From the NCBI GenBank assembly GCA_016866975.1, contig VGKP01000017.1, forward strand, positions 1-15,722: DNA of 15,722 nucleotides, given 5' to 3'. The first letter of the stretch is position 1, and each line of letters begins with the position of its first letter. The position numbers and the translations under genes are program-made. The stretch comes from Candidatus Pacearchaeota archaeon. Lineage in GTDB: Archaea; Nanobdellota; Nanobdellia; Pacearchaeales; GW2011-AR1. The notes under the pieces are model-generated. The model saw nothing but the letters and a program-made list of their open reading frames with translations. It did no database searches and had not been told where the DNA came from. Positions 1 through 13,839 of this stretch are shown one piece after another.

Positions 1-1434
1 CTTTATCGGATTCTCATAGCAAGGTCTTTTGGACCAGAAGAATATGGACTTTTTTCTCTTGCAACAATGGTGGTAATACTTTTTGTTTCTCTTGCATCCT
101 TAGGAATACCTGAAGGATTGGTAAGGTTTATCGCACTCTATCGGGGGAATAAGAATGTAAAAAAGATAGGAGCTCTTGTGAAGTCTGCCTTGGGATTTCT
201 TATCTTTACAAGTGTCGTTACCAGCATCGCACTAATCATGCTCACACCTTGGATTTCACTCAACTTATTCCACACAGATAAACTAATTCCCTATCTTTAT
301 CTCGCAGCTCTTGCAATCCCCTTCTATACGATTGCAAATGTGTATCTCTCTGTCCTGCGCGCTTTTGAAAAAATAGCTTCCTATTCATTCATTCTTAATT
401 TTATGCAAAATTTCACGAAAATTGCAGCCCTTGCTATCTTTGTCTTCTTCGGCATGAAAATAAATGCCATCATGTTCTCCTATGTTCTCGGGATTCTAGC
501 AATGTTTTTGGCAGCATTTGTGGCAGTAAAAGTGAAGCTCGCTCATAACCTAAAGGTTCAAAAAGGGGGGCGAGGGTTAAATCCTCTCAGAGAAATTTTC
601 TCTTACTCCTGGCCACTCTCTCTTTTAAGTGTCGCGTCTTTTATTCTTTACTGGGTTGACAGCTTTACCATAGGCTACTTTAGGAATCCTGTCGAAGTGG
701 GGCTCTACAATGTGGCTGTTCCTCTTGCCGCAATTGTCATGATTGTACCTGACTTGATTATTCAGCTCTTCTTTCCCTTAGTGACCAAGGAGTATTCGCG
801 GAAGAATTATTCACTCATTCAGGAACTCAGCAAGCAAGCCACAAAATGGGTGTTTCTAGTCAATGTCCCTCTAACGCTCATTATCCTCCTCTTTCCAGGA
901 GTCATCATTAATTTCTTTTTCGGCTCAACGTATCTTGCCGCAGAACAATCTTTGCAGCTGCTCACTCTTGGCTCTCTTTTCGGCTCTTTGAGCATTATTC
1001 CGGCACATCTCATCTCCATGATTGGAAAATCAAAGCTGATGCTCGGGAATACTTTGGCGATGCTGGCTCTCAATGTGGTTCTGAATATTCTCTTGGTGCC
1101 GCGATATGGGATGGCGGGAGCAGCATTTTCAACGATGGTCATCTTTATCTGCATCAGTATCATCTACGGGATTCAATGCAGGAAGTTTCTTGCATTCATT
1201 CCTGTGCGGAGAAAGATGATAGAAATCTTCTTTTTTTCTTTAATTCCACTTCTCATAGTCATAGGGTTAAAAAGTTTTCTTATTCTTACCCCTCTAGTCC
1301 TTATCGCGCTGGGGATCGTTTTTCTCCTCATCTATGCAGCAATCATCTGGATATTCAAATGCCTGGACCATCACGACATCTACATTATAAGGATTTTTCT
1401 TCAAAAGTTGAAAATTCCTGAAAAGCAACGCTAA
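1..1434 (+). CDS. Wzx/MATE-like oligosaccharide flippase (polysaccharide biosynthesis protein), 5'-truncated by the window edge
   Basis: Frame 1 is open from base 1 (LYRILIARSFGPEEYGLFSLATM...), giving the typical flippase N-terminal 'AR.(L/F)GPEEYG' motif, so the true start is outside the window. Many hydrophobic TM segments, 'VGLYNVA' and 'LNILLVPRYGMAGAA' flippase motifs. Stop TAA at 1432-1434. Confidence 0.9.
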   Translation, partial: LYRILIARSFGPEEYGLFSLATMVVILFVSLASLGIPEGLVRFIALYRGNKNVKKIGALVKSALGFLIFTSVVTSIALIMLTPWISLNLFHTDKLIPYLYLAALAIPFYTIANVYLSVLRAFEKIASYSFILNFMQNFTKIAALAIFVFFGMKINAIMFSYVLGILAMFLAAFVAVKVKLAHNLKVQKGGRGLNPLREIFSYSWPLSLLSVASFILYWVDSFTIGYFRNPVEVGLYNVAVPLAAIVMIVPDLIIQLFFPLVTKEYSRKNYSLIQELSKQATKWVFLVNVPLTLIILLFPGVIINFFFGSTYLAAEQSLQLLTLGSLFGSLSIIPAHLISMIGKSKLMLGNTLAMLALNVVLNILLVPRYGMAGAAFSTMVIFICISIIYGIQCRKFLAFIPVRRKMIEIFFFSLIPLLIVIGLKSFLILTPLVLIALGIVFLLIYAAIIWIFKCLDHHDIYIIRIFLQKLKIPEKQR

Positions 1435-1466: not shown

Positions 1467-1487
1467 CCTCTCCAGAATCTTATGCTT

Positions 1488-2081
1488 ATGAACGGATTAG
1501 TGAAAAAAGAAGATCTTATTTCCTTTGAAAAAGAAGTGGAGCAACTTTATATCGATAAGAAAATTCGATCCCCTGTGCACGCATCAGGAGGGAATGAGGA
1601 AGAGCTTGTTGCGATTTTCAAGAATATTCACCCTAAAGATTGGGTTTTTACAACGTATCGGAGCCATTATCATGCGCTGCTCAAGGGGATATCCCGGGAA
1701 TGGTTGCTCAAGGAAGTTCTTGAAAATCATAGCATCCATATTATGAGTAAGGAGCACAGGTTTGTGAGCTCATCTATCGTCGGAGGAACACTGCCCTCTG
1801 CGCTCGGCGTAGCATGGGCAATCAAAAGAAAAGAGGAAAAGCGGCACGTCTGGGTATTCTGTGGGGATATGGCTTCAGAGAGCGGGGTTTTTCATGAATG
1901 TGCCAAATATGCCCGGCGCAACAATCTCCCGATGACGTTTGTTGTCGAGGATAACGGCTGGAGTGTTGATACTCCAACGCAGAAAGTCTGGGGCGGTCAG
2001 GATTCAGGCCCCAACGTATTGAGGTATACTTATGAAAGGACGTATCCCCATTATGGATTCGGAGTCTGGGTGATGTTCTGA
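1488..2081 (+). CDS. Minimal TPP-dependent dehydrogenase E1 alpha-like subunit (PDH/2-oxoacid dehydrogenase family)
   Basis: Motifs 'SPVHASGGNE', 'TYRSHYHALLKG', 'SSIVGG', and TPP/Mg motif 'GDMASESG...VVEDN' (GDG-X24-27-N variant). About 197 aa. Start 1488 preferred from TATA spacing; 1482 is the alternative. Confidence 0.85.
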   Translation: MNGLVKKEDLISFEKEVEQLYIDKKIRSPVHASGGNEEELVAIFKNIHPKDWVFTTYRSHYHALLKGISREWLLKEVLENHSIHIMSKEHRFVSSSIVGGTLPSALGVAWAIKRKEEKRHVWVFCGDMASESGVFHECAKYARRNNLPMTFVVEDNGWSVDTPTQKVWGGQDSGPNVLRYTYERTYPHYGFGVWVMF

Positions 2082-2653
2082 TGGGCGATTATTTTGATGA
2101 ACTCAAGAAATCCATGCAATTTCTCGCGCAGGACATACGGGTTATTTTCGTGGGCCAAACCGTCGGATACAAAGGGACTGCTTTCTTTAAAACACTTGAA
2201 GGCATTTCAGAAACGCAACGCCTTGAGCTTCCTGTCTTTGAGGACGTGCAGATGGGGATGACCATTGGATTAAGCTTCGAAGGCTACATTCCTGTTTCTT
2301 TTTTCCCTCGCATGGACTTCATGGTATTAGGATTCAATCAGTTGGTCAATCATCTCGACAAGATGGAAGAGATGTCGTCAGGACAGTTTAAGCCCAAGAT
2401 TATCATTCGTACAGCCATCGGGAGTGTAAAGCCTCTATTTCCCGGGCCGCAGCATTGTCAAGATCATGTTGACGCGCTGAAGCTGATGCTGAAGAATGTT
2501 GATGTGATCAAGCTTACACGAAAAGAAGATGTGTTCCCTGCCTATCAAAAGGCTCTCACGAGCGAGAAGTCGACAATTATTGTGGAGCTTCCCGATCTTT
2601 ATCATGCAGATTCTTCAGAGGAATTTTCTGGGATTCCAGGATCAAAACCATGA
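2081..2653 (+). CDS. TPP-dependent E1 beta-like subunit, pyrimidine-binding domain only
   Basis: Motifs 'ELPVFEDVQMGMTIGLSFEG' (cofactor-activating Glu), 'DF...FNQLVN', 'GPQH'. 190 aa with no C-terminal domain. TGATG stop/start overlap with the alpha gene. Confidence 0.85.
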   Translation: MGDYFDELKKSMQFLAQDIRVIFVGQTVGYKGTAFFKTLEGISETQRLELPVFEDVQMGMTIGLSFEGYIPVSFFPRMDFMVLGFNQLVNHLDKMEEMSSGQFKPKIIIRTAIGSVKPLFPGPQHCQDHVDALKLMLKNVDVIKLTRKEDVFPAYQKALTSEKSTIIVELPDLYHADSSEEFSGIPGSKP

Positions 2654-3777
2654 GAGTTGAATTTGGTGACTTGCGCCTCGATGAAGCAGCAAAAGAGAAT
2701 CTGCTGGACTGTATAGCAAAAAACTGGATCTCGGGAGGGCCCAAAGTAAAGCAATTCGAGGAGGAATGGGGAAATCTCTTCGGGTACAAGCACAATTTTG
2801 CAGTATATTCTGGAACTGGGGGCGACATCGGAGCCTGTATGGCACTTTACGATCTCGGCGCGCAGCGCGGAGATGAAATTATCGCGCCAGCGCTCGCTTT
2901 TGCCGCCGTCGGAGAGGCAATTCTGCAGGCAGGGTTTAAGCCTGTATTTGTAGATGTGGAAAAGGAGACGCTAAATATCGATCCAAAGATCATTGAGCAG
3001 AAAATTACTCCACGTACGCGCGCAATTCTTGTTGCGCATACCATGGGAAAGCCGTGCGAGATGGATTCCATCATGGAAATAGCAAGGAAACACAACCTCA
3101 TCGTGATAGAGGATTCCTGCGAGGCTCATGGGGCAAAGTACAAGGGAAAATTTATCGGGAATTGGGGCGACATGGCTGTCTTTAGCTTCTATATCGCACA
3201 CCTCATCTGTTGCGGCGAGGGAGGGATGATTTCAACGAATAACGAACGCATTGCGCAGATTCTCTCCTCAGTGCGTTCCCACGGAAGAAAAGGAGGTCAG
3301 CTCTATTTTGATCATGAGAGACTCGGCTCCAACTTAAAGATGAATGACATGGAGGCCGCAGTTGGCCTATCAGAAGTTAAGAAGTTTTGGTGGACGTTCG
3401 ATACAAGAAAGAAGAACCTTATTTATTTGCTGTATAAGATGAAGGACTTGCAGAAATATGCCTATTTCAATCTAGAGGGCTCAAACGATGTAGTATGTGC
3501 ACATGGATTTACTGTGACTATGAAAGATCCAAAATATAACTGCGCAGCACTCTATAGGTTCTTGGAAGACAACTCTATAAAGTGTAAGAGAAATTTCGGA
3601 AGTATGCCTACTCAACATAAGGCATTTGCTTTCCTAGGCCATAAGCTCGGAGAATTTCCGGAATCAGAGTATATTGGAGATCACGGATTGCATTTCGGAG
3701 TGCATCAATTCTTGTCATTAGACGATCTGGATTACATCTCTGAAAAGATGCATGAATATTTTAAGAGATTTGAGTAA
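2650..3777 (+). CDS. DegT/DnrJ/EryC1/StrS-fold PLP/PMP enzyme, His-type: probable NDP-4-keto-6-deoxysugar C3-dehydratase (ColD-like)
   Basis: Family motifs 'WISGGPKVKQFE', 'IEDSCEAHGA', 'GEGGM'. The active-site segment SFYIAHLICCGEGG has His where aminotransferases have Lys (SFxxxKxxxxGEGG). ATGA overlap with the E1 beta stop. Confidence 0.85.
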   Translation: MRVEFGDLRLDEAAKENLLDCIAKNWISGGPKVKQFEEEWGNLFGYKHNFAVYSGTGGDIGACMALYDLGAQRGDEIIAPALAFAAVGEAILQAGFKPVFVDVEKETLNIDPKIIEQKITPRTRAILVAHTMGKPCEMDSIMEIARKHNLIVIEDSCEAHGAKYKGKFIGNWGDMAVFSFYIAHLICCGEGGMISTNNERIAQILSSVRSHGRKGGQLYFDHERLGSNLKMNDMEAAVGLSEVKKFWWTFDTRKKNLIYLLYKMKDLQKYAYFNLEGSNDVVCAHGFTVTMKDPKYNCAALYRFLEDNSIKCKRNFGSMPTQHKAFAFLGHKLGEFPESEYIGDHGLHFGVHQFLSLDDLDYISEKMHEYFKRFE

Positions 3778-3779
3778 GG

Positions 3780-5927
3780 TTAGGTCTTATGCCTATTTTG
3801 CCAGATTTGAGTTCCTCCCAATTCAAAATGGAACGGCATTATCTCGGCGCCAGCTTGCTCAAGGACATGTACAAGAGCATTTCTCCTCTTTAATGCCGTA
3901 AAGAAGAGCAGATAGCCTCCATTCCCCGCACCGAGAAGCCTGCCTCCTTCGGCACCGTTGCCCATGCCAAGTTCATAAAGCATGTTCACTCGCGCGGTAG
4001 ACGCGAGAGGAGATATTTTCTTTTTAGTCTCCCAGGATTCATGGAGTGTTTTTCCAAAGAGGTCAAGCCTATGCGTCAACAGAAAGTCTTTCGCTTCAAT
4101 GGCTATCTTTTTCATCTTTTGCAGGAGAGCTACGGTGTCATCAGTATTACTCTTAAAATTCTCTTCTTGCCTCGAATGCACATCACTAGATACATGAGAT
4201 GTGCCTACATAACACAAAACAAGGCGATGGTTAAGTTCTTGGATTACTTCTTCTTTCAGGCGGAGGGGATAAATGATGTTCTTTTCCTCATTAAACTCGA
4301 TAAAATTAAAGCCGCCAGTGACCGCAGCATACTGATCTTGCCATCCTCCCTTGATTTTGAGTTCTTCAAAGTGCGCTTTGTAGGCAAGTTCGGCAATTTT
4401 ATACGAGTCGTAGCTTGTTTCTTGCAGATGGTTGAGGAGACTGATAACGAGAACAGCAAGGCTCGCGCTGGATCCCAAGCCTCTCCCTGGAGGGATATCA
4501 TTATGAAGGTAAATCTCAAATCCGAAATCAGGTTTCATGACCTTGATTGCCGCCTTAACCATGTCAAGAGTACCATCGTATAAGAGTGCTTCAGCAGACC
4601 GTGCAACTATATCTCTACCTCGAGTAAGATCGGAATCGATAATAATCTTCTTATCGGCTCGCTTAACGATAGTAGCATGGCAATATTTGTCAATGGTTGC
4701 ATTGATGACTGCCCCTCCATATGTTCCAAAAAAATACGGGAGATCCGTGCCGCCACCGCCAAAGCTTATTCTCAAGGGAGATTTTCCACTGATAATAGGG
4801 AATGTCTCTCTTTTTAAGAGTTCAGTGCCGAAGACAATGTCCTTGATAATGCCCTTCTCATCAACAATCGGGAGATGCCTGATGCCCACCGACATGATAG
4901 AGGTGCGTTTTTCCTCGCTGTCCGTATGCTGAGCAGTGATAGGATTCACCACCATGGCGTGCGCAACCTGATCTGCGATATTTCCACCGCGTAAAATAAA
5001 TTCTTTGATGATTCGATCATTGATAATACCTTTGAGTTTTTTTTCAGAATCAGTGACGAGGAGGATATTGATGCCGCTCTTGCTGATTTTCTGCATCGCT
5101 TCACGTACAATAGCATGTTCTTGCAGAATCAAAGTATTTAATACATCCTCTTTGAATTTTTCATGGGTTTCAGGCCTGCCGATATCCATAAAATAACCGT
5201 CTTCAAGGTATCCAAACAAGTTTCTTTCGCGTGCAAGGATAGGGAAGATTTCCTTTTCAAGAGAGATTTTTGAGCCAGATGCAATGTACTGGAAGATGCG
5301 AGAATCAAGAACATAAATCCCTCTGTTGACAATGCCTGTTCCTACGCCTTCTTTTTCGCTGAATTGAGAAATTATATTGCCTTCAAGAACAACATTGCCG
5401 TAGTGGAGCGATTCTGAAGTTTTGAAGAGGCTGATAGTGAATTGATGCTCATGGCTTGAATGGAAGTTCAGAAGTTTTCTGATGTTGATATGAGAATAAG
5501 AATCGCCATTGAGGACAAGGAAAGGCCCGCCCCCAAGATATTTTTCCGCATTCTTGATAGCTCCTCCGGTTCCAAGAGGAGTTTCCTCTTCAGAATAAGT
5601 GATGTCAGTATTCCATCTCCTGCCATCACCAAAATAGGATTTTATCTTGTCTGAGAGATGATGGACTGCAAGGACGATTTCAGTAACACCCTGGTCACGC
5701 AGGAAACGGATTTGGTGTTCAAGGAAGGGTTTGCCCGCAAACAAAGCCATGGGCTTGGGAATTTCATCTCCTAGGACAGGCTTTAGGCGCGTACCGAATC
5801 CACCTGCAAGAATAAGTGCTTTTACAGGGTAGGGGAGGTCTTTCTTGGCTTCAATGACTTCTTCTTCCCCGAGGGAACGATACACGTCGTGCGCAGAAGT
5901 AATGGAGGTATTCATAGGATTAGGCAT
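3780..5927 (-). CDS. Triple fusion: sugar-1-phosphate nucleotidyltransferase (HddC/GDP-mannose pyrophosphorylase-like) + CBS pair + GHMP sugar kinase (HddA, heptose-7-phosphate kinase-like)
   Basis: N-terminal 'ALILAGGFGTRL...PKPM', 'EETPLGTGGA', 'NGD', 'MDIGRPE'. Central CBS pair ('GINILLVTD...LKGII', 'GIRHLPIVDEKG'). C-terminal 'PLRISFGGGGTD', 'PPGRGLGSSAS', 'GGWQDQYAA', 'GGRLLGAGNGG'. Start at 5927 (overlaps upstream stop) or 5915; 5960 is unlikely. Confidence 0.9.
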   Translation of the reverse strand: MPNPMNTSITSAHDVYRSLGEEEVIEAKKDLPYPVKALILAGGFGTRLKPVLGDEIPKPMALFAGKPFLEHQIRFLRDQGVTEIVLAVHHLSDKIKSYFGDGRRWNTDITYSEEETPLGTGGAIKNAEKYLGGGPFLVLNGDSYSHINIRKLLNFHSSHEHQFTISLFKTSESLHYGNVVLEGNIISQFSEKEGVGTGIVNRGIYVLDSRIFQYIASGSKISLEKEIFPILARERNLFGYLEDGYFMDIGRPETHEKFKEDVLNTLILQEHAIVREAMQKISKSGINILLVTDSEKKLKGIINDRIIKEFILRGGNIADQVAHAMVVNPITAQHTDSEEKRTSIMSVGIRHLPIVDEKGIIKDIVFGTELLKRETFPIISGKSPLRISFGGGGTDLPYFFGTYGGAVINATIDKYCHATIVKRADKKIIIDSDLTRGRDIVARSAEALLYDGTLDMVKAAIKVMKPDFGFEIYLHNDIPPGRGLGSSASLAVLVISLLNHLQETSYDSYKIAELAYKAHFEELKIKGGWQDQYAAVTGGFNFIEFNEEKNIIYPLRLKEEVIQELNHRLVLCYVGTSHVSSDVHSRQEENFKSNTDDTVALLQKMKKIAIEAKDFLLTHRLDLFGKTLHESWETKKKISPLASTARVNMLYELGMGNGAEGGRLLGAGNGGYLLFFTALKRRNALVHVLEQAGAEIMPFHFELGGTQIWQNRHKT

Positions 5928-6870
5928 TTTTGTAGGGGTCGTCCTTGAGAAGCAAGGCATACCCTCGCATCAATTCCTGAATGCCGTCTTCAAGCGAAAC
6001 AGCTGGCAGAAATCCGGTTGCCATAATCTTCTTGTTAGAAACAATGTAATTTCTTTTGTCAGGATCTTCTCCGATTTTCATGGGAATCATTGCAAATTTA
6101 GGAACGTATTTTTTGATGGTCTCTGCAAGTTCCATTTTAGAGAGATTGGCATCTTCGAGGCCAACATTATAAATCTGATTTTTCATACTGTCAAAGTTCA
6201 CAATGCAATGCTCAAAACACCGCGCAACATCCCGTATGTGGATGTAATTTCTTTTAAAATGCGCCTCATAAATCACAACATAGCCGTCGCGCAAGGCTTT
6301 CAGGACAAAATCATTGACAAGCAAATCAGTGCGCATACGTGGAGAGATACCGAAAACCGTTGCAAGCCTAAGGGTAATCACATCCTTTCCCGATTTTGCG
6401 GCAGCAAGCAGATAGCGCTCTGCATCAGATTTTGTTCGTCCATACAATGAAATGGGTTCAAGAGGAGTTTCTTCCGTACAGAAGACATCGCCTGTCTTTG
6501 TCCCGTAGCCGCTGTTGGTCGTGGGATATATGAGCTTTTGCCTCGAAGTGCGAAGCTCATTGATGAGCACAATTGCCTCATAATTAATAGAAACCGCATC
6601 AAGTGGCTTTGCATCGCAGGCAGGCATGCCAACAATTGCGGCAAGCGGGATGATGACATCAAATTCAGGGAGAATTTCCACAAGTAGCTCTTTATTTCTC
6701 GCATCCCCATAGATAAAATTGAAACGAGGATTGCTCGCATAATGAAGAAGAGACCGTTGCTTATAGCTGAGATTGTCAAGGCACGTTACATTAAATCCTT
6801 TTTCTAGGAGATATCCGGCAAGGAAGCTTCCAAGATATCCTGCACCTCCCGTAATCAGCACTTTTTGCAT
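5920..6870 (-). CDS. Extended SDR, Cj1427-like GDP-heptose (NDP-sugar) C4-dehydrogenase
   Basis: 'KVLITGGAGYLGS', 'IIPLAAIVG', 'IYPTTNSGYG', YxxxK 'LYGRTK', 'RLATVFGISPRMRTDLLVNDF', 'HFKRNYIHIRDV', 'IGEDPDKRNYIVSN'. These closely match Campylobacter jejuni Cj1427c as I recall it (not aligned computationally). Start moved to MQKVL at 6870. Confidence 0.8.
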   Translation of the reverse strand: MQKVLITGGAGYLGSFLAGYLLEKGFNVTCLDNLSYKQRSLLHYASNPRFNFIYGDARNKELLVEILPEFDVIIPLAAIVGMPACDAKPLDAVSINYEAIVLINELRTSRQKLIYPTTNSGYGTKTGDVFCTEETPLEPISLYGRTKSDAERYLLAAAKSGKDVITLRLATVFGISPRMRTDLLVNDFVLKALRDGYVVIYEAHFKRNYIHIRDVARCFEHCIVNFDSMKNQIYNVGLEDANLSKMELAETIKKYVPKFAMIPMKIGEDPDKRNYIVSNKKIMATGFLPAVSLEDGIQELMRGYALLLKDDPYKNA

Positions 6871-6891
6871 TACACCATCTGCAAAGAGGGT

Positions 6892-6899
6892 TTTATAAA
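6892..6899 (-). promoter_or_regulatory. Archaeal-type TATA box TTTATAAA for the Cj1427-like/fusion operon
   Basis: Minus-strand TTTATAAA (6899..6892); last base 22 nt before the ATG at 6870. Confidence 0.7.
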
Positions 6900-6902
6900 G
6901 AA

Positions 6903-6967
6903 AGTGGTGGCGGAGTGATGAAGATATAATGGTGGGCTGAAGTAATTTCTCAACGAAAGCCACCACT
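6903..6967. other. Intergenic stem-loop closed by a 9-bp inverted repeat, containing GTGATGA and CTGA on the + strand
   Basis: AGTGGTGGC (6903-6911) is the reverse complement of GCCACCACT (6959-6967). Box-C-like GTGATGA at 6915-6921 and box-D-like CTGA at 6937-6940. Confidence 0.4.
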
Positions 6968-7039
6968 ACGCCAAAGAAGTACGTCCCCGACGACCCTCGT
7001 AGAACATAAAACATCATAATTGAAAATTCTCGAGTGTGC

Positions 7040-7091: not shown

Positions 7092-8171
7092 TTAAAACCC
7101 ATCGGAAGTCAGCATATACCTCAAGAAAGGGTCTGCTTCAGAATATTTTTTTTCAGGTATATTGGGCACATCATAATCTGCCTCGATAATGACGGGCAGA
7201 TTAGAGTTTTGAGCATGGGTTGCTATAGTTTTAAATTGTTCTCTTGAGACAATTCCTTCAGGGCCAACACCCACACTACCCCATTTCTTTATGAGTGGCC
7301 CATCAAGATAGATCCCCATACCTGTTGCATTGCCGATATGATAAGCTCTTCCCAATGGGGTATAACTCTCCAGAGAAGGGTGTCTTTTAAAATAATCCGG
7401 CCAGGTCTTAATTCGTTCCATCTCAAAGAGCATTCTCTCATCTTCTCCTGCATCGTTTTTACCCATAAAATTAGCACATTGCGAACCTGCCCAATGAGCA
7501 GTATCTAAGATAAGATTTCCTTTAGAAAGAGAAGTTAATGATCCAATATCATTAAAAGGATGGACAAAAATGTAAGGTGTCTTATCTTGCAATTTAGGAT
7601 GGGGTACAAGATGAGCTGTAACTCCATGCTCAATAGCAACGCCAATACCCTTTTAGCGGGCAAGACTTTCTAACGCAGAGAAGCGGGAGGCACATCGGTC
7701 ATAGAGCGCATCTCTCTGAGAATTAAATTGATCAGGAGTCAATATAACGGGGCTTTTCATTCTAAGTGCATTTCTTGAGACAAACAGGCCCACATTAACA
7801 CTCACCGTAACAGGGTATTGCGAAGAGTCCTCTGAACGAAGAGCCGCGACCTGATTGATCACAAGATCTATGAGATCCTTCCCATATTCAGTGTCTTGCT
7901 CTGCGCTAAACGCAAGGCAATGCCTGGATTGAAAGGTGGATTGCGCATGAACAATAGGAAGGCGATATTTCGCCTGGTTAACTTTTTGTTTTTCTAAATT
8001 TTCTTCTCTCATTGCAGGAGGTATAAAAAAGAGAAAAGCTCCCACTTGGAGCGGTCGTCCTATGGATTCGCCATATTTTTCAATGAGTTCTTTTGCTTCA
8101 AGAAATGCCTGAATTTCAGATTCCTTGTGCAACATGACGGGAAGGCCAACTGTAAGTTTTTTATCGCTCAT
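7092..8171 (-). pseudogene. Xylose-isomerase-like/AP-endonuclease-2 TIM-barrel protein (sugar isomerase/epimerase family) interrupted by one in-frame TAA at 7655-7653
   Basis: ORFs 7653..8171 and 7092..7592 are in the same frame. The 20 codons between them are open: ...LESLAR*KGIGVAIEHGVTAHLVPHPK-LQDK.... The joined protein (about 359 aa) has the metal-ligand pattern 'GVAIEH', 'LILDTAH', 'YHIGN', 'PVIIE'. Confidence 0.7.
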
Positions 8172-8420: not shown

Positions 8421-10145
8421 TTACAAGACGTTCTTCTTATACCACTCCATCGTTCTGCGAATACCTTCATCAAGCGATATCGAAGGCTGCCAGCCAAGTT
8501 CTTGCTTTGCCTTGTTGCAATTCAAAGCAAGTGTTGTTTTAATTGTCGGCTTAGAAGTATCGTATGCAATGGCAAGTTGCCCTCCTGCGGCATCCACGAT
8601 TTTTTTGACAAGCTCACGGATAGAGACAGAGGAGCCGTATCCTATATTATATAGGCCGAATTGGGACTGTTGCTTCTCCAGTGCAAGAATCACAGCGTCA
8701 ACAAGGTCAGAGACATACAACAAATCCCTCTCTTCTTCTCCTGTTCCCCAGACAATAATCTTCCCATCTTTCGGTTGCAGTACTTTCGTCATGGTTGCTC
8801 CAAAGACATGGGACTTCTCAAGGTCAAATTTGTCATGGGGCCCGTAGATGTTAGAATGCCTGAGCACAGTGTATCGTGTCTCTCCAATGCGCGAATAGAA
8901 TTCACACATCTTTTCAATATAGACTTTGGTCCAGCCGACTCCAAAATAGCTCTTAAACAGTTCTTTGTTAGCATCAAAATCACTCTCTAGCACAGGCCGC
9001 TCAGAAGGCTGATACATGACGCTGCAGCTGAAAAAAACAACTTGCTTAACTTTGCAGTCATGGGCTGCTCTGAAGATTAGCGAATTCATAATCGCATTGT
9101 CCGTGACATGAAAATACGGGCGCGTGACAATATCCTTTGCCCCTGAAGTCGTGGCAGCCGCCTGAATGATGACATCCATGCCAGATACAACACATCTTAC
9201 TTCTTCTTCGTTGCACAAATCAGCTTTCTTCAACTGCAATCCAGGCAATGAAAAGGGCTGGCTGTGATGATACGTACCATAAAGTTCAAGATTCTCCTTT
9301 CCCGCAAGCCGTTCAGCAATATTTCTCCCAATAAATCCTGAGACACCACAAATAAGCACTTTCGTTTTCTGGGGAGATAATTTCTGCTGCTTAAATTCAA
9401 GAATCACTTCCTTAGAGGATTTATTCATAAAAGGAAACATGTTCAGAAGTTTGGCGTGGGCAATGTTCCCAGTAGCATAACGGTACTGACCGAATGTTAC
9501 ATTTTTCCCGAGAAGTTCTGCAACTTCTTTGAGAGCGATATTTCTTGTGGCAACTACATTATACACGCCCACTATATTCTGGCTGAGTGCCTGCGTGACA
9601 ATCTTGAGAAGGTCAGAGTGAAGCACATAGTTAAACTCTGCATCAGGCGAGAGTGTCAATGTAGGGAATGTATCTTCAATGATTTTGAGCAGGCTGTTTT
9701 TTCTCGAATATGGCCCGAGAAGGGCGGAGCAGCGCAGGATAAGTGCCTGAGGTGATAGTTTTCGGACAAGAGCTTCAGAAAGGAATTTTGTCAGAGGATA
9801 GATGCAGGCAAGTGCATCAGCAGAAATATTTTCCGCTTCGTCGTGGATTTTGCCATCAGTAGGATACACATCAATCGTAGAAATAAAGATGAATTTTTCA
9901 TGCGGAATTTCCAAAAGGTGCTGGGTAAGAAGAAGATTATCCTGCACATATGCCGCGACTTCTTCGGAAGAAGAGGGCTTTTTTGAATTAAATGCGCAAT
10001 GGATAATCGTGGCAACACCTCTTTCTCTGAGCTGCTGCCATTCTGCATCAGAAGTTTCACGCGATATACCTATAACATTGAGCTTCTCTGCAAGATAACG
10101 CCCTAATCCACTCTTGCTTCCTGTGACAATGATTTTTCCTTCCAT
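8421..10145 (-). CDS. Tandem fusion of two NAD(P)-dependent epimerase/dehydratase (SDR) domains; C-terminal domain GDP-fucose-synthase-like
   Basis: Two Rossmann motifs: 'IIVTGSKSGLG' (with YxxxK 'YPLTK') and 'KVLICGVSGFIG' at about 9360 (with 'RHSNIYGPHDKFD', 'SHV', 'VWGTGEEERDLLYVSD'). TAATG overlap with the upstream gene. Confidence 0.85.
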   Translation of the reverse strand: MEGKIIVTGSKSGLGRYLAEKLNVIGISRETSDAEWQQLRERGVATIIHCAFNSKKPSSSEEVAAYVQDNLLLTQHLLEIPHEKFIFISTIDVYPTDGKIHDEAENISADALACIYPLTKFLSEALVRKLSPQALILRCSALLGPYSRKNSLLKIIEDTFPTLTLSPDAEFNYVLHSDLLKIVTQALSQNIVGVYNVVATRNIALKEVAELLGKNVTFGQYRYATGNIAHAKLLNMFPFMNKSSKEVILEFKQQKLSPQKTKVLICGVSGFIGRNIAERLAGKENLELYGTYHHSQPFSLPGLQLKKADLCNEEEVRCVVSGMDVIIQAAATTSGAKDIVTRPYFHVTDNAIMNSLIFRAAHDCKVKQVVFFSCSVMYQPSERPVLESDFDANKELFKSYFGVGWTKVYIEKMCEFYSRIGETRYTVLRHSNIYGPHDKFDLEKSHVFGATMTKVLQPKDGKIIVWGTGEEERDLLYVSDLVDAVILALEKQQSQFGLYNIGYGSSVSIRELVKKIVDAAGGQLAIAYDTSKPTIKTTLALNCNKAKQELGWQPSISLDEGIRRTMEWYKKNVL

Positions 10146-11137
10146 TAGACAAATTTTTTTTCCGTGAACACATTGTATCTCTTTCCTACAATCTCTTTAT
10201 TCTCCTTATACCACTGCATGACTTCCTTGATGCCCTCCTCTAAGGAGACTGTAGGCTCCCACCCCAGAGCCTTTGCTTTGCTGATATCCATGACCCTCTT
10301 CCTGTCTCCTGAAGGCTTTGACGTGTCCCACACAATCTTTGGTTTCTGTTCAAGGTTGTTAACGATAATATCAACAATCTGCTTGACTGTATATCCCTGC
10401 CCACTGCCAAAATTAATCGGCGAGGGATGGCATTTTTCAAGTGCAAACAGCATACCTCGCGCAACATCTTTTGCATGAATAAAGTCGCGTACCGGGGTTC
10501 CATCACCCCATACAACCAAAGGGTCTTCACCGCTCATCGCTCTCGCGATAAGGGATGGGATGACCATTGCGTTTGCAGGGTCAAAGTTGTCATACGGTCC
10601 GTAGGTATTGGCAGGCCTCACGACAGCCAGATTCATCGAGCCATATTCTTTGCGGTAGGCTTCCACCTGAAGCTCACCCATACGTTTCGCCCAACCTGCA
10701 AATTTGTCATTTTCAGAGGGAAATGTTTTCCAAACATCATCTTCGTGGAATACTTCTGCAGGAGCATAAACTCCAATCGTGCTCGTATAGAGGATACGTT
10801 CAGCTCCTGATTGGCGTGCTGCTTCGAGCATGTTAGTGTTAAACAGAATCGTGGGAACAAAAAAGCTCGCAGGTTTCTCAGCAGTCATTTTCGGAGAGCC
10901 TTTGATGCCTGCAAGATGAAAAACAATATCCATGCCTTTGCAGGCAAGCAAGCAATTGTTGATGTCCATAAGGTTGACTTTCATGAATTCTGCTTGTGGA
11001 TGTGCGCGCGAAGGGTCATCGAGAGAGGCGATGCGGACGCTCGCGCCTTGCTCAATAAGAAGCTGGACAAGTTGCCTTCCAATCATCCCCGTTCCCCCCG
11101 TAACAAGTATTTTCTTGCCTTGATAAAAGTTCATCAT
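10145..11137 (-). CDS. GDP-L-fucose-synthase-like extended SDR (NDP-sugar epimerase/reductase)
   Basis: 'KILVTGGTGMIG', 'VFHLAG', 'RPANTYGPYDNFD', 'VWGDGTPVRDFIHAKD', 'WDTSKPSG'. Start MMNF at 11137 (ATGA overlap with upstream TGA; GAGGT SD-like sequence upstream). Confidence 0.85.
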   Translation of the reverse strand: MMNFYQGKKILVTGGTGMIGRQLVQLLIEQGASVRIASLDDPSRAHPQAEFMKVNLMDINNCLLACKGMDIVFHLAGIKGSPKMTAEKPASFFVPTILFNTNMLEAARQSGAERILYTSTIGVYAPAEVFHEDDVWKTFPSENDKFAGWAKRMGELQVEAYRKEYGSMNLAVVRPANTYGPYDNFDPANAMVIPSLIARAMSGEDPLVVWGDGTPVRDFIHAKDVARGMLFALEKCHPSPINFGSGQGYTVKQIVDIIVNNLEQKPKIVWDTSKPSGDRKRVMDISKAKALGWEPTVSLEEGIKEVMQWYKENKEIVGKRYNVFTEKKFV

Positions 11138-12114
11138 GAGTGTACCTCTCTCGCAACGGCTAGCCTGCAATGATCAAGAAGGTATTTAATACTTTCTTCA
11201 AAAGAATACTTTGGCTTCCATCCTGTTTCTCTTTCAAATTTGGAAGTATCTGGTATCTGCAGAGTCACATCCACAGGTCGCAATAGCGTAAGTTCGACTC
11301 TCGAAGGGATAGTGCATTGTGCAAGTTTCTTCAAAACATCAAGGAATTGCCCGACCGTGATGACAGTATTGCCCCCAATATTATAGATTTCTCCAGGTCT
11401 TCCTTTCGTCATGGCAATCCAGTAGGATTCCATAGCATCACGGACATCAATGAGTGTCCGCGTGGAGTCGAGATTGCCATGGAGCAATTCTTTTTGCAGA
11501 CCAGCTTCAATGCGCGCAACCTGCATTGCAAAGGACGTTGCAAAGAGATCGGTTCTTCGCGGATTGAGGTACGCAAACATACGAGTGCGGATAACGGGAA
11601 TGCCATAACTCTTGAAATAAGTGAGTCCCAGGGAATCCTGTGCCATCTTTGACACTGCATAAGGATTGACAGGCTGTACGGGACAGTCTTCAGTGATAGG
11701 CACGTGCCGAGGGTCAACTTGCCCATACAGTTCAGAAGTGCTGCAGATTTGAACGAGAGGTTTGGTGCCTGAAAGGCGTATAGCTTCAAAAAGATTTGCA
11801 GTGCCCATAATATTATTATGCAAGACAGAAAGCGGATTAACAAAAGATGCGCGGACATTGGCGTGGGAAGCAATATGAAAAATAGCATCAGGTTGAACTT
11901 TGCGAATGACTTCAAAAACAGCAGAGAAGTCAGTAAGGTCGCATTCATGGAGATTTATTTTATCTTTAATCAAAGAGATATTCTGGTGCGTGGATGTGCT
12001 ATGCCAACGTGTGATTCCATGGATATCTACATCCGGATGGTTCTGTGCAATATATTCTGCAAGATAACTTCCGCCGGATCCGGTAACGCCAGTAATCAGT
12101 GCCTTTTTTATCAT
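11134..12114 (-). CDS. GDP-sugar 4,6-dehydratase (Gmd/DmhA/Rmd family; resembles GDP-heptose 4,6-dehydratase DmhA)
   Basis: 'ALITGVTGSGGSYLA', catalytic 'STSELYG' (Thr/Glu) and 'PYAVSK'. Segments 'G..RW', 'PRRTDLF', 'QVARIEAG', 'GNLDSTRTLIDVRDA', 'LRPVD' resemble DmhA as recalled. Start MIKKA at 12114. Confidence 0.8.
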   Translation of the reverse strand: MIKKALITGVTGSGGSYLAEYIAQNHPDVDIHGITRWHSTSTHQNISLIKDKINLHECDLTDFSAVFEVIRKVQPDAIFHIASHANVRASFVNPLSVLHNNIMGTANLFEAIRLSGTKPLVQICSTSELYGQVDPRHVPITEDCPVQPVNPYAVSKMAQDSLGLTYFKSYGIPVIRTRMFAYLNPRRTDLFATSFAMQVARIEAGLQKELLHGNLDSTRTLIDVRDAMESYWIAMTKGRPGEIYNIGGNTVITVGQFLDVLKKLAQCTIPSRVELTLLRPVDVTLQIPDTSKFERETGWKPKYSFEESIKYLLDHCRLAVAREVHS

Positions 12115-12142
12115 CTTAATAATAGTAGAAATACACAACCGC

Positions 12143-12159
12143 AATCCTTTTTAAGGATT
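12143..12159. promoter_or_regulatory. Palindromic element in the 69-bp divergent intergenic region containing back-to-back TATA-like boxes
   Basis: AATCCTT-TTT-AAGGATT inverted repeat. It reads TTTTTAAG on + and CTTAAAAA on - (both 12148-12155), between divergent starts at 12114 and 12184. Confidence 0.5.
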
Positions 12160-12183
12160 ATTGTAGTAGTACCTGAGAGGCAT

Positions 12184-13839
12184 ATGGCAATACAATCTCA
12201 GAATGTGCTTGAAGAAAAGAAAAAAAAGCTCGCGGGCAAGAGCATATTCTTCGCAGCATGGGGGGCAGCAAATAAAAACGACTCACTCTACCAGAATTGG
12301 TATCTTCCTCTAAAGAAGATGGTAAAGCAGGCAATTGTTTTTGATGCAGGGCAGGAATATTTCAGGGAAGGGAAAGAGAAGATGAACAAAAAATTTCTGA
12401 AGAGAGTGGAAGAAATCAAGCCCGATTATATTTTTTTCAATCTTATGTATGACGAATTCGAGCTCTCAACATTGAAGAAGCTGCGTAAAATATCGCCTAA
12501 AACAATACTTGTGAATATCTTTAGCGATGACGACTGGAGATTCGACAACTATTCGCGATACTACAGCCTGTTCATGGATTATGCTCTCACGTGTCACGAT
12601 GTCAGGGCAGAATATGCAAGGGACGGTCAGCAGAAGGCAGTATTTTTCATGGCGACCAACTGCGAACACTTCAGACCCATAGATGAGAAAAGGATTTATG
12701 ATGTAGTTTTCTTTGGCAAGCCGAATCCAAGTAGAATAGAGCTGATGCAGTTGCTGATAAAGAAAGGAATCGCTTTCCATCTTTGGGGTGAAGGATGGGA
12801 GAGATACCCTGAATTCAGGGAGTACTATCACGGCTATCTCCCGGCGGAGGAACTGGTAAGGGTAATCAATCAGAGCAAGATTGTTCTGGGCTTTACAATG
12901 GGGGGATACGGGAAGCCGCAGATTAAAGGAAGGCCCTTTGAAGTTGCAGCATGCAAATCATTCATCTTGGTAGAACATTATGAGAAATATCTCGATTTTT
13001 TCAGGAAAGAGAAAGAAATAGTAATGTTTAAGGATACTGAAGAATTAATAGAAAAAATTCAGTACTATCTCAAACACGAGAAAGAGAGGGAAGAGATTGC
13101 TGCAGCCGCATATAAGAAAGTTATTGCGAGCCACAATCAGCCGAAGGAGATAGAAAAGTTTCTTCTGGGAACATTAGATAAAAAACCTTCTCAGTGGGAA
13201 CTTCCCCCTGTCCAGGGAAGGTATGCTATTCTCTCAGCAAGCGATCTTGCACAGCCGCAGAAAATTATTGAAGATAAGCTTAAGGGAGCTGAATATGTTA
13301 CATTTGCTACCGATAACACAAACCACTCTCTTAGATATTACTTTCAGGCATATGCTCTTGAAAAATCAGGAAAAGAAATCAGCTGCTGCGACTATTACGT
13401 TTCAAAGCCGTTCCTTCACAACTATCTGCTTTTCAAGTCACAGGTCGCTTTCCAGAAGCTTTCTTACCATGAGTTTCACAACACTCTCGATATATCTCAG
13501 TTAATGGTGAGAAAAAAATATTTTCTGGAGCATCTCGATGAAGTGAAGAATTTGCATTCAGCAAATGTTCTGAATAAAGAAAATACAGTGTTCATCTCAA
13601 TTCCATTGGTGACTTTGCACGATTTTAGGGCAGCCGACAGAAAGGTTTTTGAATCAGTATTTCAGATGAAATTCCTGGACAGCCTCTACTCCCTCTACGC
13701 CAGAAGGAGGATTTTTATTAGCTTCTATCCCTATGCACTCCTTATCCATGCAGCTATTAGAAAAACATATATCTTTGGCATAATTCGTAATGCTCTGAAG
13801 GACGCAAAGAAATTATCTAAGCTTAAAGAGGCACATTAA
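12184..13839 (+). CDS. CgeB-like glycosyltransferase (Glyco_trans_1_2 family) with an uncharacterised C-terminal extension of about 210 aa
   Basis: 'YDVVFFGKPNPSR', 'LWGEGW', 'INQSKIVLGF', 'KGRPFEVAAC', 'EELIEKIQYYLKHEKEREEIA'. Start MAIQS at 12184 with GAGAGG upstream; the longer ORF from 11818 overlaps the dehydratase antisense. Confidence 0.85.
   Translation: MAIQSQNVLEEKKKKLAGKSIFFAAWGAANKNDSLYQNWYLPLKKMVKQAIVFDAGQEYFREGKEKMNKKFLKRVEEIKPDYIFFNLMYDEFELSTLKKLRKISPKTILVNIFSDDDWRFDNYSRYYSLFMDYALTCHDVRAEYARDGQQKAVFFMATNCEHFRPIDEKRIYDVVFFGKPNPSRIELMQLLIKKGIAFHLWGEGWERYPEFREYYHGYLPAEELVRVINQSKIVLGFTMGGYGKPQIKGRPFEVAACKSFILVEHYEKYLDFFRKEKEIVMFKDTEELIEKIQYYLKHEKEREEIAAAAYKKVIASHNQPKEIEKFLLGTLDKKPSQWELPPVQGRYAILSASDLAQPQKIIEDKLKGAEYVTFATDNTNHSLRYYFQAYALEKSGKEISCCDYYVSKPFLHNYLLFKSQVAFQKLSYHEFHNTLDISQLMVRKKYFLEHLDEVKNLHSANVLNKENTVFISIPLVTLHDFRAADRKVFESVFQMKFLDSLYSLYARRRIFISFYPYALLIHAAIRKTYIFGIIRNALKDAKKLSKLKEAH

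What the first reader, a model, noticed from the sequence alone, without database searches (positions are those of the whole stretch)
3780..5927. Nucleotidyltransferase-CBS-CBS-GHMP kinase triple fusion
One polypeptide carries an HddC-like transferase (about 5825-5150), a CBS pair (about 5130-4830) and an HddA-like kinase (about 4795-3780). HddA and HddC are normally separate and catalyse non-consecutive steps, with the phosphatase GmhB between them. CBS pairs in sugar nucleotidyltransferases are usually N-terminal. The domain order parallels Fkp (fucokinase/pyrophosphorylase) but is built from different parts. Inference: either an adenylate-sensing gate on activated-heptose synthesis, or a salvage enzyme that activates a free sugar directly (1-kinase then NTP transfer), which would suit a host-dependent scavenger.
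Basis: partly seen in the sequence, partly recalled or inferred. Interest (0 to 1): 0.7.

Follow-up and report, generated by a model that had tools for sequence, protein, structure and literature searches.

The report
Fused GDP-heptose kinase/guanylyltransferase, DPANN archaeon
One gene of a tiny DPANN archaeon joins a sugar-1-phosphate guanylyltransferase, a CBS pair and a heptose-type sugar kinase; it is real, common in these archaea and unstudied, and most likely performs two of the four steps that make GDP-heptose for surface glycans.

Summary
Window 3780-5927 (-) is one open 715-aa gene with three parts: an NTP_transferase (aa 36-260), a CBS pair (aa 267-372) and an HddA/WcbL-like GHMP kinase (aa 378-710). 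All catalytic motifs are intact. It is not an artefact: the identical protein lies on three contigs, and more than 100 full-length homologues (52-61% identity) with the same architecture exist in Nanoarchaeota, Pacearchaeota and Woesearchaeota.

In orthologous contigs the fusion sits in the same conserved glycan island as here. There, gmhB lies directly upstream in 7 loci and gmhA within 0-8 kb in 5. The window's kinase domain nests among those orthologues.

The open point is that this 89%-complete genome shows no gmhA, gmhB, SIS domain or phosphomannomutase. The window is a whole contig cut inside the island, so direct salvage of a free sugar stays possible (about 0.15).

The CBS ribose-phosphate motifs are degenerate, so adenylate sensing is unsupported.

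No paper on this architecture was found. The scan had already noted the same fusion in five other DPANN genomes. I class it as a new variant of a known kind, of moderate interest.

The parts
3780..5927 (-). Whole gene, 715 aa: HddC-like nucleotidyltransferase + CBS pair + HddA-like GHMP kinase
   Evidence: Single ORF. The start ATG overlaps the stop of the upstream gene. Domains. AF2 pLDDT 86.6.
5823..5927 (-). N-terminal extension of about 35 aa, predicted disordered; absent from most homologues, present in some
   Evidence: In alignment A1 most homologues start at MKAxILAGG, which is aa 35 here, but P0004, P0005, P0011 and P0079 share an extension. pLDDT is below 50 for aa 1-28.
5148..5822 (-). 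Sugar-1-phosphate nucleotidyltransferase domain (aa 36-260), predicted guanylyltransferase
   Evidence: PF00483 2e-32. HddC 151 bits, Man-1-P GTase 168 bits. The GGFGTRL and E114-x-x-PLGTGGA motifs are invariant; the Glu corresponds to the guanine-binding Glu80 of YpHddC (PMC6981941). Foldseek to YpHddC: TMt 0.89, rmsd 2.4.
4812..5129 (-). CBS pair (aa 267-372) linking the two catalytic domains
   Evidence: PF00571 at aa 267-311. Own CBS HMM covers aa 268-371, 135 bits. Two beta-alpha-beta-beta-alpha units in the model. The ligand motifs are degenerate: GIINDRI and GIIKDIV.
3798..4796 (-). GHMP anomeric sugar kinase domain (aa 378-710), HddA/WcbL type
   Evidence: NF049969 HddA 244 bits. PDB 4n3o, 4usm, 4usk and 3k85 at E about 1e-52 to 1e-58. 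Foldseek to WcbL: TMt 0.91, rmsd 2.2. R386 and D531 align with the catalytic R13 and D163 of WcbL (PMC4691232). The PPGRGLGSSAS and GGGTD motifs are invariant.
5920..7017 (-). SDR epimerase/dehydratase gene directly upstream, translationally coupled; a conserved neighbour of the fusion
   Evidence: PF01370. Orthologues at 55-81% identity lie directly upstream of the fusion, or of gmhB plus the fusion, in L017, L097, L098, L099, L102, L103, L108 and L109.
2650..3777 (+). DegT/RfbH-like PLP enzyme, convergent with the fusion; a conserved island member
   Evidence: PF01041 2e-92; RfbH 243 bits. Orthologues at 54-73% identity lie next to the fusion in L097, L099, L102, L103 and L109.
1482..2653 (+). 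Two small ThDP E1-alpha/E1-beta-like genes; conserved island members
   Evidence: E1_dh and weak Transket_pyr hits. Orthologues in L097 (fused), L101, L102 and L109.
8421..12144 (-). Three NDP-sugar SDR genes: a double SDR (574 aa), an Fcl-like reductase/epimerase (341 aa) and a Gmd-like 4,6-dehydratase (336 aa)
   Evidence: Orthologues lie in the same island in L099/L100, L101, L105 and L109.
1..1434 (+). Wzx-type flippase, cut by the contig end
   Evidence: PF01943/PF13440. In L109 the orthologue lies directly beside gmhA.

Best explanation

Proposed steps:
1. [quoted passage not shown]
2. A separate phosphatase (GmhB) removes the 7-phosphate.
3. The N-terminal domain (HddC type) joins the resulting heptose 1-phosphate to GTP, giving GDP-heptose.
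4. Neighbouring enzymes then modify GDP-heptose before transfer and flipping: a Gmd-like 4,6-dehydratase, Fcl-like reductases/epimerases, an RfbH/ColD-like PLP enzyme and a small ThDP enzyme.

The CBS pair most likely serves as a rigid linker or oligomerisation module rather than a classical adenylate sensor.

Shown here: the architecture, the intact catalytic motifs, the fold matches, orthology, and linkage of the orthologues to gmhA and gmhB. Inferred: the substrates, GTP use, the role of the CBS pair, and that this genome's gmhA and gmhB lie in unassembled sequence.
For: Domains and motifs:
- Domain hits.
- The best solved relatives of the kinase are the heptose kinases 4n3o, WcbL and 3k85. 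The catalytic R13 and D163 equivalents are conserved as R386 and D531 (PMC4691232).
- The NT domain carries the invariant EXXPLGTGGA motif with the guanine-binding Glu (PMC6981941).

Neighbourhood, from my own gmhA and gmhB HMMs run on 150 fetched loci:
- Among 18 archaeal triple-fusion loci (window included), gmhB lies 0-66 nt upstream and co-directional in 7: L017, L099, L100, L101, L104, L108, L111.
- gmhA lies 0-8.4 kb away in L097, L102, L109 and L114, and 7 kb away in G022.
- Chance co-location within 10 kb in a genome of about 1 Mb is about 2%.
- The same island gene set as in the window surrounds these orthologues.

Phylogeny and conservation:
- In the kinase-domain tree the window nests in the archaeal triple-fusion clade (SH-aLRT 100 and 98). 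Its nearest relatives are L102 (gmhA-linked) and L017 (gmhB-linked).
- The window protein does not deviate at any strongly conserved site compared with 23 homologues.

Other points:
- The own genome has a transketolase, so sedoheptulose-7-P is plausibly available.
- In C. jejuni gmhB also lies outside the heptose cluster (PMC10680097).
Against: - In the own genome (806 kb, 31 contigs, 89% complete) no SIS or SIS_2 domain was found.
- My gmhA HMM gives no hit there at E below 1. The gmhB HMM gives only generic HAD hits of 25.7 bits or less, against more than 200 bits for true gmhB.
- Most of the nine other genomes sampled from the same family lack a real gmhA. Six have no SIS_2 hit and three only weak ones at E about 3e-4.
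- The domain scores fall far below NCBIfam's equivalog cutoffs (HddA 244 against 600; HddC 151 against 300). The Man-1-P guanylyltransferase model scores slightly higher than HddC.
- Bacterial CBS-bearing kinases, 17 loci including the Pseudomonas flagellin glycosylation islands, never sit near gmhA. The CBS-kinase lineage is therefore not universally tied to a local gmhA.
- No biochemical data exist for any member.
Confidence: 0.7

Rival explanations
1. Salvage enzyme. In this genome, and perhaps in other islands without gmhA or gmhB, the kinase phosphorylates the anomeric OH of a free scavenged sugar (mannose or a heptose). The NT domain then converts the sugar-1-P directly to the GDP-sugar, as in Fkp, with no isomerase or phosphatase needed.
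For: - No gmhA, gmhB, SIS domain or PGM/PMM was found in the 89%-complete genome, and this is its only GHMP kinase.
- The NT domain scores as well on Man-1-P guanylyltransferase models and structures as on HddC.
- YpHddC was assayed with mannose-1-P (PMC6981941), and WcbL binds mannose in its sugar pocket (PMC4691232).
- Several orthologous islands show neither gmhA nor gmhB within the fetched contig: L098, L103, L105.
Against: - The nearest orthologues are physically coupled to gmhB (start/stop overlap) and to gmhA.
- The window protein has no substitutions at conserved positions that would suggest a changed pocket.
- The window is an entire contig cut inside the island. In L109 gmhA lies just beyond wzx, the gene at which the window is cut.
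- The genome is incomplete.
Confidence: 0.15
2. The same bifunctional chemistry, with the CBS pair acting as a true allosteric sensor (AMP, ADP, ATP, SAM or a nucleotide sugar) that gates flux into the GDP-sugar.
For: - A CBS pair is retained between the domains in more than 100 homologues and in the bacterial CBS-kinase genes.
- G300 is invariant and G359 nearly so (22 of 24). Half of the homologues keep Thr at the fourth motif position of CBS1, and four keep the full G-h-h-T-x-x-D motif.
Against: - In the window both motifs are degenerate (GIINDRI and GIIKDIV). CBS2 lacks the T/S and D/N positions across the family.
- CBS-less NT-kinase proteins of about 570 aa exist among the database relatives, and adjacent NT and kinase genes without any CBS occur next to gmhA. 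The CBS pair is therefore dispensable for the pathway.
- No ligand data exist.
Confidence: 0.25
3. Assembly chimera or decaying pseudogene with no function.
For: A neighbouring gene in the same operon carries an in-frame stop, so some decay occurs in this island.
Against: - The 715-codon frame is open and all motifs are invariant.
- The identical protein lies on 3 contigs.
- The same fusion occurs on many independent contigs.
- The model is of high confidence.
Confidence: 0.01

Closest known systems
[quoted passage not shown]
   Same: - Same folds and the same catalytic residues: R13 and D163 equivalents, the GHMP motifs, GxGTRL, and EXXPLGTGGA with the guanine-binding Glu.
- About 33-36% identity to the solved structures.
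- Orthologues are linked to gmhA and gmhB.
- The downstream 4,6-dehydratase, reductases and PLP C3-dehydratase-like enzyme parallel the C. jejuni heptose modification enzymes (PMC10680097).
   Different: - Both activities lie on one chain with a CBS pair between them.
- Scores are far below the NCBIfam equivalog cutoffs.
- The host is archaeal (DPANN).
- This genome shows no gmhA or gmhB.
HldE (RfaE) of E. coli and other Gram-negatives: bifunctional heptose-7-P kinase / heptose-1-P adenylyltransferase
   Same: It fuses the same two non-consecutive steps (1-kinase and nucleotidyltransferase) around a separate GmhB phosphatase (PMC4691232, introduction).
   Different: The domain folds are unrelated: a PfkB-type kinase and a cytidylyltransferase-like NT (from established knowledge; no such Pfam hits here). 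HldE also uses the beta-anomer and ATP to give ADP-heptose, has the opposite domain order, and has no CBS pair.
Fkp / FKGP (L-fucokinase / GDP-L-fucose pyrophosphorylase) and the zebrafish glucuronokinase/pyrophosphorylase
   Same: An N-terminal pyrophosphorylase plus a C-terminal GHMP anomeric kinase in one chain. The kinase part aligns (PRK13412 positions 726-933; 5yys and 9iit). See PMC11982464 and PMC3938481.
   Different: - Fkp catalyses two consecutive steps on a free sugar.
- Its NT domain and linker are of a different family.
- Only the kinase matches (97.5 bits against a cutoff of 721).
- The full-length superposition is poor (rmsd 28.8).
CBS-NTP_transferase proteins such as PtmE of Campylobacter (recalled from memory) and the CBS+NT ORF in L131
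   Same: A CBS pair attached to a sugar-1-P nucleotidyltransferase.
   Different: In those proteins the CBS pair is N-terminal and there is no kinase (L131: CBS at aa 13-109, NT at aa 120-335). Here the CBS pair follows the NT domain and belongs evolutionarily with the kinase: bacterial genes are split as NT | CBS-kinase.

Membership tests
HddA / WcbL (D-glycero-D-manno-heptose-7-P 1-kinase, GHMP superfamily) | GHMP kinase fold with motif I (PLRISxxGGGTD), motif II (PxGxGLGSSA) and motif III (GAGxGG) | tested here: met
   PF00288. The motifs are invariant in 24 sequences. Foldseek to WcbL: TMt 0.91, rmsd 2.2.
HddA / WcbL (D-glycero-D-manno-heptose-7-P 1-kinase, GHMP superfamily) | Catalytic Arg13 and Asp163 of WcbL | tested here: met
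   R386 and D531 align with R13 and D163. Their role is given in PMC4691232.
HddA / WcbL (D-glycero-D-manno-heptose-7-P 1-kinase, GHMP superfamily) | Score above the curated equivalog cutoff (NF049969, 600 bits) | tested here: not met
   244 bits. It is the best-scoring family but clearly a divergent subfamily.
HddA / WcbL (D-glycero-D-manno-heptose-7-P 1-kinase, GHMP superfamily) | Genomic association with gmhA and gmhB | tested here: inconclusive
   Met in the orthologues: gmhB adjacent in 7 loci, gmhA within 8.4 kb in 5. Not met in the window or its 89%-complete genome.
HddA / WcbL (D-glycero-D-manno-heptose-7-P 1-kinase, GHMP superfamily) | ATP-dependent phosphorylation of heptose-7-P at O1 | not testable with these tools
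   Needs an enzyme assay.
[quoted passage not shown] | NTP_transferase fold with the GxGTRL loop | tested here: met
   PF00483 2e-32. GGFGTRL is conserved. Foldseek to YpHddC: TMt 0.89.
[quoted passage not shown] | EXXPLGTGGA motif whose Glu (Glu80 in YpHddC) binds guanine | tested here: met
   E114-E-T-P-L-G-T-G-G-A. E114, P117, G119, T120, G122 and A123 are invariant. The motif is described in PMC6981941. It is shared with Man-1-P guanylyltransferases, so it speaks for GTP use, not for heptose.
[quoted passage not shown] | Score above the curated equivalog cutoff (NF049965, 300 bits) | tested here: not met
   151 bits. The man1P_GTase_Rv model scores 168 bits against a cutoff of 440.
CBS pair (Bateman module) as an adenosyl-ligand sensor | Two tandem CBS motifs | tested here: met
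   Pfam finds one motif (aa 267-311). My own HMM and the AF2 secondary structure show two units, aa 268-372.
CBS pair (Bateman module) as an adenosyl-ligand sensor | Ribose-phosphate binding motif G-h-h-T/S-x-x-D/N in at least one CBS motif (motif recalled from the CBS literature) | tested here: not met
   The window has GIINDRI (CBS1) and GIIKDIV (CBS2). Across the family, CBS1 has T in 12 of 24 and D at position 7 in 4 of 24; CBS2 has neither.
Fkp-type fucokinase / GDP-fucose pyrophosphorylase | Full-length match to PRK13412, including the Fkp-type pyrophosphorylase domain | tested here: not met
   97.5 bits against a cutoff of 721; only the kinase part aligns. The full-length superposition has rmsd 28.8.
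HldE | PfkB-type kinase plus cytidylyltransferase-like adenylyltransferase domains | tested here: not met
   No such Pfam or NCBIfam hits. The domains here are GHMP and NTP_transferase. The resemblance is of logic only.

The most novel reading that the evidence does not exclude
In this host-dependent archaeon the fused enzyme works without GmhA and GmhB. It would take a free scavenged sugar (mannose or a heptose from the host or environment) and turn it into the GDP-sugar in two steps on one polypeptide. That would make it the sole entry point for GDP-sugars into a conserved DPANN surface-glycan island, in a genome with no phosphomannomutase and no SIS isomerase.
Probability: 0.15. Interest if true: 0.65.

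Novelty: new variant of a known kind. Interest (0 to 1): 0.42.

Why it matters
Heptose-containing glycans are barely documented in Archaea. One review mentions a single heptose isomer, in Thermoplasma N-glycans (PMC11407970), and no paper found links DPANN archaea to a GDP-heptose pathway.

This fusion marks a conserved, mobile-looking glycan island in many DPANN genomes. The island probably produces a modified (deoxy, possibly C-branched) GDP-heptose for the cell surface, which is the interface with the host.

The enzyme would be a compact one-protein tool for making GDP-heptoses. It would also be a natural counterpart of HldE, built from unrelated folds, which is a clean case of convergent fusion of non-consecutive steps.

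The missing gmhA and gmhB in this genome give a concrete, testable question about scavenging versus de novo synthesis in reduced archaea.

Tried and rejected
1. The idea that the CBS-bearing kinase clade is never linked to gmhA and so has another substrate. It arose from the genome-contig loci, where the bacterial CBS-kinase loci have no gmhA while the plain hddA loci mostly do (counted as 0 of 17 and 38 of 59). It was refuted for the archaeal fusions by the metagenome loci and by synteny.

2. The idea that the two unannotated ORFs 7092-7592 and 7653-8171 are divergent GmhA and GmhB, since their sizes fit. Rejected. They are one 359-aa gene split by an in-frame TAA. It has no Pfam hit, and a homologue's model has a xylose-isomerase-like TIM-barrel fold.

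3. A search for 7-phosphate-binding residues in the WcbL paper, to test substrate specificity. No heptose-7-P complex exists, only mannose and glycerol soaks, so no residue-level test was possible.

The 48-kb contig carrying the identical protein could therefore not be inspected.

5. The weak GmhB-family hit at C7:257-382 is only generic C-terminal HAD similarity, 25.7 bits.

6. Literature searches for the architecture returned nothing on it.

7. The tallies include the unpublished genome G244. No specific claim rests on it.
Full report
**1. Observation**

- The minus strand carries one open frame at 3780-5960.
- The ATG at 5927 overlaps the stop codon (5920-5922) of the upstream SDR gene.
- Pfam finds NTP_transferase (aa 36-260, 2e-32), a CBS motif (aa 267-311) and GHMP_kinases_N (aa 456-539).
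- NCBIfam's best models are HddA over aa 378-710 (244 bits, cutoff 600), a mannose-1-P guanylyltransferase model (168 bits) and HddC (151 bits, cutoff 300) over aa 36-260. The CBS part of GutQ matches over aa 269-362.
- HMMs that I built from homologue segments cover all three parts end to end.
- The AlphaFold2 model built with 24 homologues is confident (pLDDT 86.6), apart from a disordered N-terminal 28 residues.
- Its kinase domain superposes on the heptokinase WcbL (TMt 0.91, rmsd 2.2 A). Its transferase domain superposes on Yersinia HddC (TMt 0.89, rmsd 2.4 A). No solved chain has the three-part architecture; only FKP matches over more than one domain, and badly.

**2. Not an artefact, and not rare**

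- The identical protein is on record from three contigs, the longest 48 kb.
- All 120 listed full-length relatives (52-61% identity, about 677 aa) carry NTP_transferase and GHMP kinase, and about 100 of them also a detected CBS domain. Where named, they come from Nanoarchaeota, Pacearchaeota and Woesearchaeota.
- A profile-free scan of 1.84 billion cluster representatives shows a modular family:
  - triple fusions of about 680 aa;
  - NT-kinase proteins without CBS, of about 570 aa;
  - many CBS-kinase proteins of about 455 aa;
  - stand-alone kinases and transferases.
- Among 251 species-level genomes of the same phylum, only the own genome and G022 carry the complete fusion. Many others have separate hddA-like and NT genes.
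- The own genome is 806 kb in 31 contigs and 89% complete. The window is the whole of contig C17.

**3. What the relatives' neighbourhoods say**

I fetched 80 loci from genome contigs and 53 from metagenome contigs. I then scanned all their ORFs with my own HMMs for NT, CBS, the kinase, GmhA (30 seeds) and GmhB (16 seeds, with the FLDRDGVI motif). Three patterns emerge.

- *Plain hddA genes.* These are nearly always in hddA-gmhA-hddC(-gmhB) clusters. Of 59, 38 have gmhA and 34 have gmhB in the locus.
- *Bacterial CBS-kinase genes (17 loci).* These never have gmhA nearby. In Pseudomonas fulva, P. chlororaphis, Stutzerimonas and Phytopseudomonas a 230-aa NT gene overlaps by 4 nt a 454-aa CBS-kinase gene. 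The pair lies inside the flagellin glycosylation island next to fliC, fliD and fleQ.
- *Archaeal triple fusions (18 loci, window included).*
  - A gmhB gene lies 0-66 nt upstream on the same strand in seven: L017, L099, L100, L101, L104, L108, L111.
  - gmhA lies 0.8 kb (L097), 7.4 kb (L109) and 8.4 kb (L102) away. It is directly adjacent in the fragment L114, and 7 kb away in G022.

My interim idea that CBS-bearing kinases are never gmhA-linked was thus refuted for the archaeal clade.

**4. Synteny and phylogeny**

BLASTP of the window's genes against these loci shows one conserved island. Its core is SDR(365 aa)-[gmhB]-fusion-DegT. Around it lie the Gmd-like dehydratase, the Fcl-like SDRs, the two small ThDP E1-like genes, the 673-aa glycosyltransferase, wzx and gmhA, in varying order.

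- L099: GT, Gmd, Fcl-like SDR, SDR, SDR365, gmhB, fusion, DegT.
- L109: GT, SDR365, fusion, DegT, Gmd, E1a, E1b, wzx, gmhA.
- L097: SDR365, fusion, gmhA, DegT, E1ab.

The window has the same gene set, at 50-81% identity, but lacks gmhA and gmhB. Its contig ends inside wzx, the gene that abuts gmhA in L109.

In a maximum-likelihood tree of 85 kinase domains the window nests in the archaeal triple-fusion clade (SH-aLRT 100 and 98). Its nearest relatives are L102 and L017, which are gmhA- and gmhB-linked respectively. The window protein shows only conservative differences at positions conserved in 23 homologues.

**5. Catalytic competence and specificity hints**

- R386 and D531 align with the catalytic R13 and D163 of WcbL (PMC4691232).
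- GHMP motifs I-III and the GxGTRL loop are invariant.
- The transferase has the EXXPLGTGGA motif. Its Glu (Glu80 in YpHddC) hydrogen-bonds guanine N1 and N2 (PMC6981941), and E114 is invariant here. This argues for GTP use. It does not separate heptose-1-P from mannose-1-P, because Man-1-P guanylyltransferases score equally well.
- The WcbL paper offers no 7-phosphate-binding residues to test.

**6. The CBS pair**

- Two CBS units are present, at aa 268-372.
- The canonical ribose-phosphate motif G-h-h-T/S-x-x-D/N (recalled from the CBS literature) is not met. The window has GIINDRI and GIIKDIV.
- In the family, CBS1 keeps Thr in half of the sequences and the full motif in four. CBS2 never does.
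- CBS-less arrangements exist: NT-kinase proteins without CBS among the database relatives, and adjacent NT and kinase genes next to gmhA.
- In bacteria the gene boundary runs NT | CBS-kinase, so the CBS pair belongs with the kinase.
- I therefore favour a structural or oligomerisation role over adenylate sensing. This is an inference.

**7. The open problem**

The own genome gives the following results.
- No SIS or SIS_2 domain.
- No hit to my gmhA HMM. Only generic HAD hits (25.7 bits or less) to my gmhB HMM.
- No PGM/PMM.
- No other GHMP kinase.
- It does have a split transketolase but no transaldolase, so sedoheptulose-7-P is plausibly made.
- Most of the nine other genomes sampled from its family also lack a real gmhA. 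Six have no SIS_2 hit and three only weak ones.

Two readings remain. Either gmhA and gmhB lie in the unassembled continuation of this island, or this organism feeds the enzyme with a scavenged sugar. In C. jejuni gmhB also lies outside the heptose cluster (PMC10680097). I put the GDP-heptose reading at about 0.7 and salvage at about 0.15.

**8. Comparison with the known**

- The chemistry is that of GmhA-HddA-GmhB-HddC (PMC10680097).
- Fusing the kinase and the nucleotidyltransferase around GmhB has a precedent in HldE (PMC4691232), but with unrelated folds and the opposite domain order.
- Fkp and the zebrafish glucuronokinase/pyrophosphorylase share the NT-plus-GHMP-kinase layout, but for consecutive salvage steps (PMC11982464, PMC3938481).
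- I found no paper on the NT-CBS-GHMP architecture or on heptose synthesis in DPANN.
- The scan's earlier notes record the same fusion in five other DPANN genomes, some next to gmhA or GmhB. My independent loci agree with those notes.
- Verdict: a real, widespread, uncharacterised variant of a known pathway.

**9. Limits**

- The tallies include the unpublished genome G244, but no specific claim rests on it.
- Neighbourhood counts come from related contigs that are not independent; L099 and L100 are near-duplicates.

Noticed in passing
window 7092-8171 (-): The two 'ORFs' 7653-8171 and 7092-7592 are one 359-aa gene in a single frame, interrupted by one in-frame TAA at 7653-7655. Only three homologues exist in 5.8 billion proteins (355-362 aa, uninterrupted; they have E, S or K at that position). 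There is no Pfam hit. The AF2 model of a homologue resembles xylose-isomerase-like TIM-barrel sugar epimerases/isomerases. The stop could be a nonsense mutation, a sequencing error or recoding. The gene sits in the same operon as the fusion and was not found in any other fetched island.
   Followed up: partly
window 1482-2081 and 2081-2653 (+): Two small genes (199 and 190 aa) resemble the ThDP-binding E1-alpha and E1-beta subunits of pyruvate dehydrogenase. They are conserved members of the island (L101, L102, L109) and fused into one ORF in L097. They may add a two-carbon branch to a keto-sugar. From memory, AviB1/AviB2 of avilamycin biosynthesis are a precedent.
   Followed up: partly
window 8421-10145 (-): A 574-aa protein made of two SDR modules: an RmlD-like N-terminal half (aa 4-214) and an Fcl/epimerase-like C-terminal half (aa 260-572). 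In related islands the matching gene is about 320 aa, a single module.
   Followed up: no
own genome C11:1932-3809 (L002:511-2388): The only other sugar nucleotidyltransferase in the genome is also a fusion. It is a 625-aa protein with a dTDP-glucose-4,6-dehydratase-like SDR (aa 11-309) followed by an RmlA-like NTP_transferase (aa 331-565). No phosphoglucomutase was found to supply glucose-1-P.
   Followed up: partly
L028, L030, L031, L034, L036 (about 10001-12060 in each): In Pseudomonas fulva, P. chlororaphis, Stutzerimonas nitrititolerans and Phytopseudomonas flavescens a 230-aa NT gene overlaps by 4 nt a 454-aa CBS-GHMP kinase gene. The pair lies inside the flagellin glycosylation island (fliC, fliD, fleQ, a second NT, an SDR dehydratase, DegT). 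No gmhA lies within 10 kb. This is a culturable system in which the CBS-kinase module could be studied.
   Followed up: partly
L020-L024, L027, L029, L035, L019: Bradyrhizobium and other Proteobacteria, plus a Nitrospinota genome, encode stand-alone CBS-GHMP kinases (433-494 aa) of the same lineage with no gmhA nearby. Their substrate is unknown.
   Followed up: no
L011, L038, L041, L058, L065; G024:C1, G157:C10, G179:C101: Other fusions of GDP-heptose pathway genes occur: GmhA-HddA (about 500-557 aa) in archaea, and HddC-GmhB (386-433 aa) in Bacteroidota and Firmicutes. The pathway is unusually prone to fusion.
   Followed up: no
own genome (whole): In the 89%-complete genome no SIS domain of any kind, no PGM/PMM, no transaldolase and no mevalonate kinase were found; the fusion is the only GHMP kinase. 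A split transketolase is present at C9:15201-15965.
   Followed up: partly
window 11818-12144: The listed 673-aa glycosyltransferase ORF (11818-13839, +) overlaps by 327 nt the 5' part of the Gmd-like gene on the other strand (11134-12144, -). Homologues align over only about 540 aa, so the true GT start is probably further downstream.
   Followed up: no
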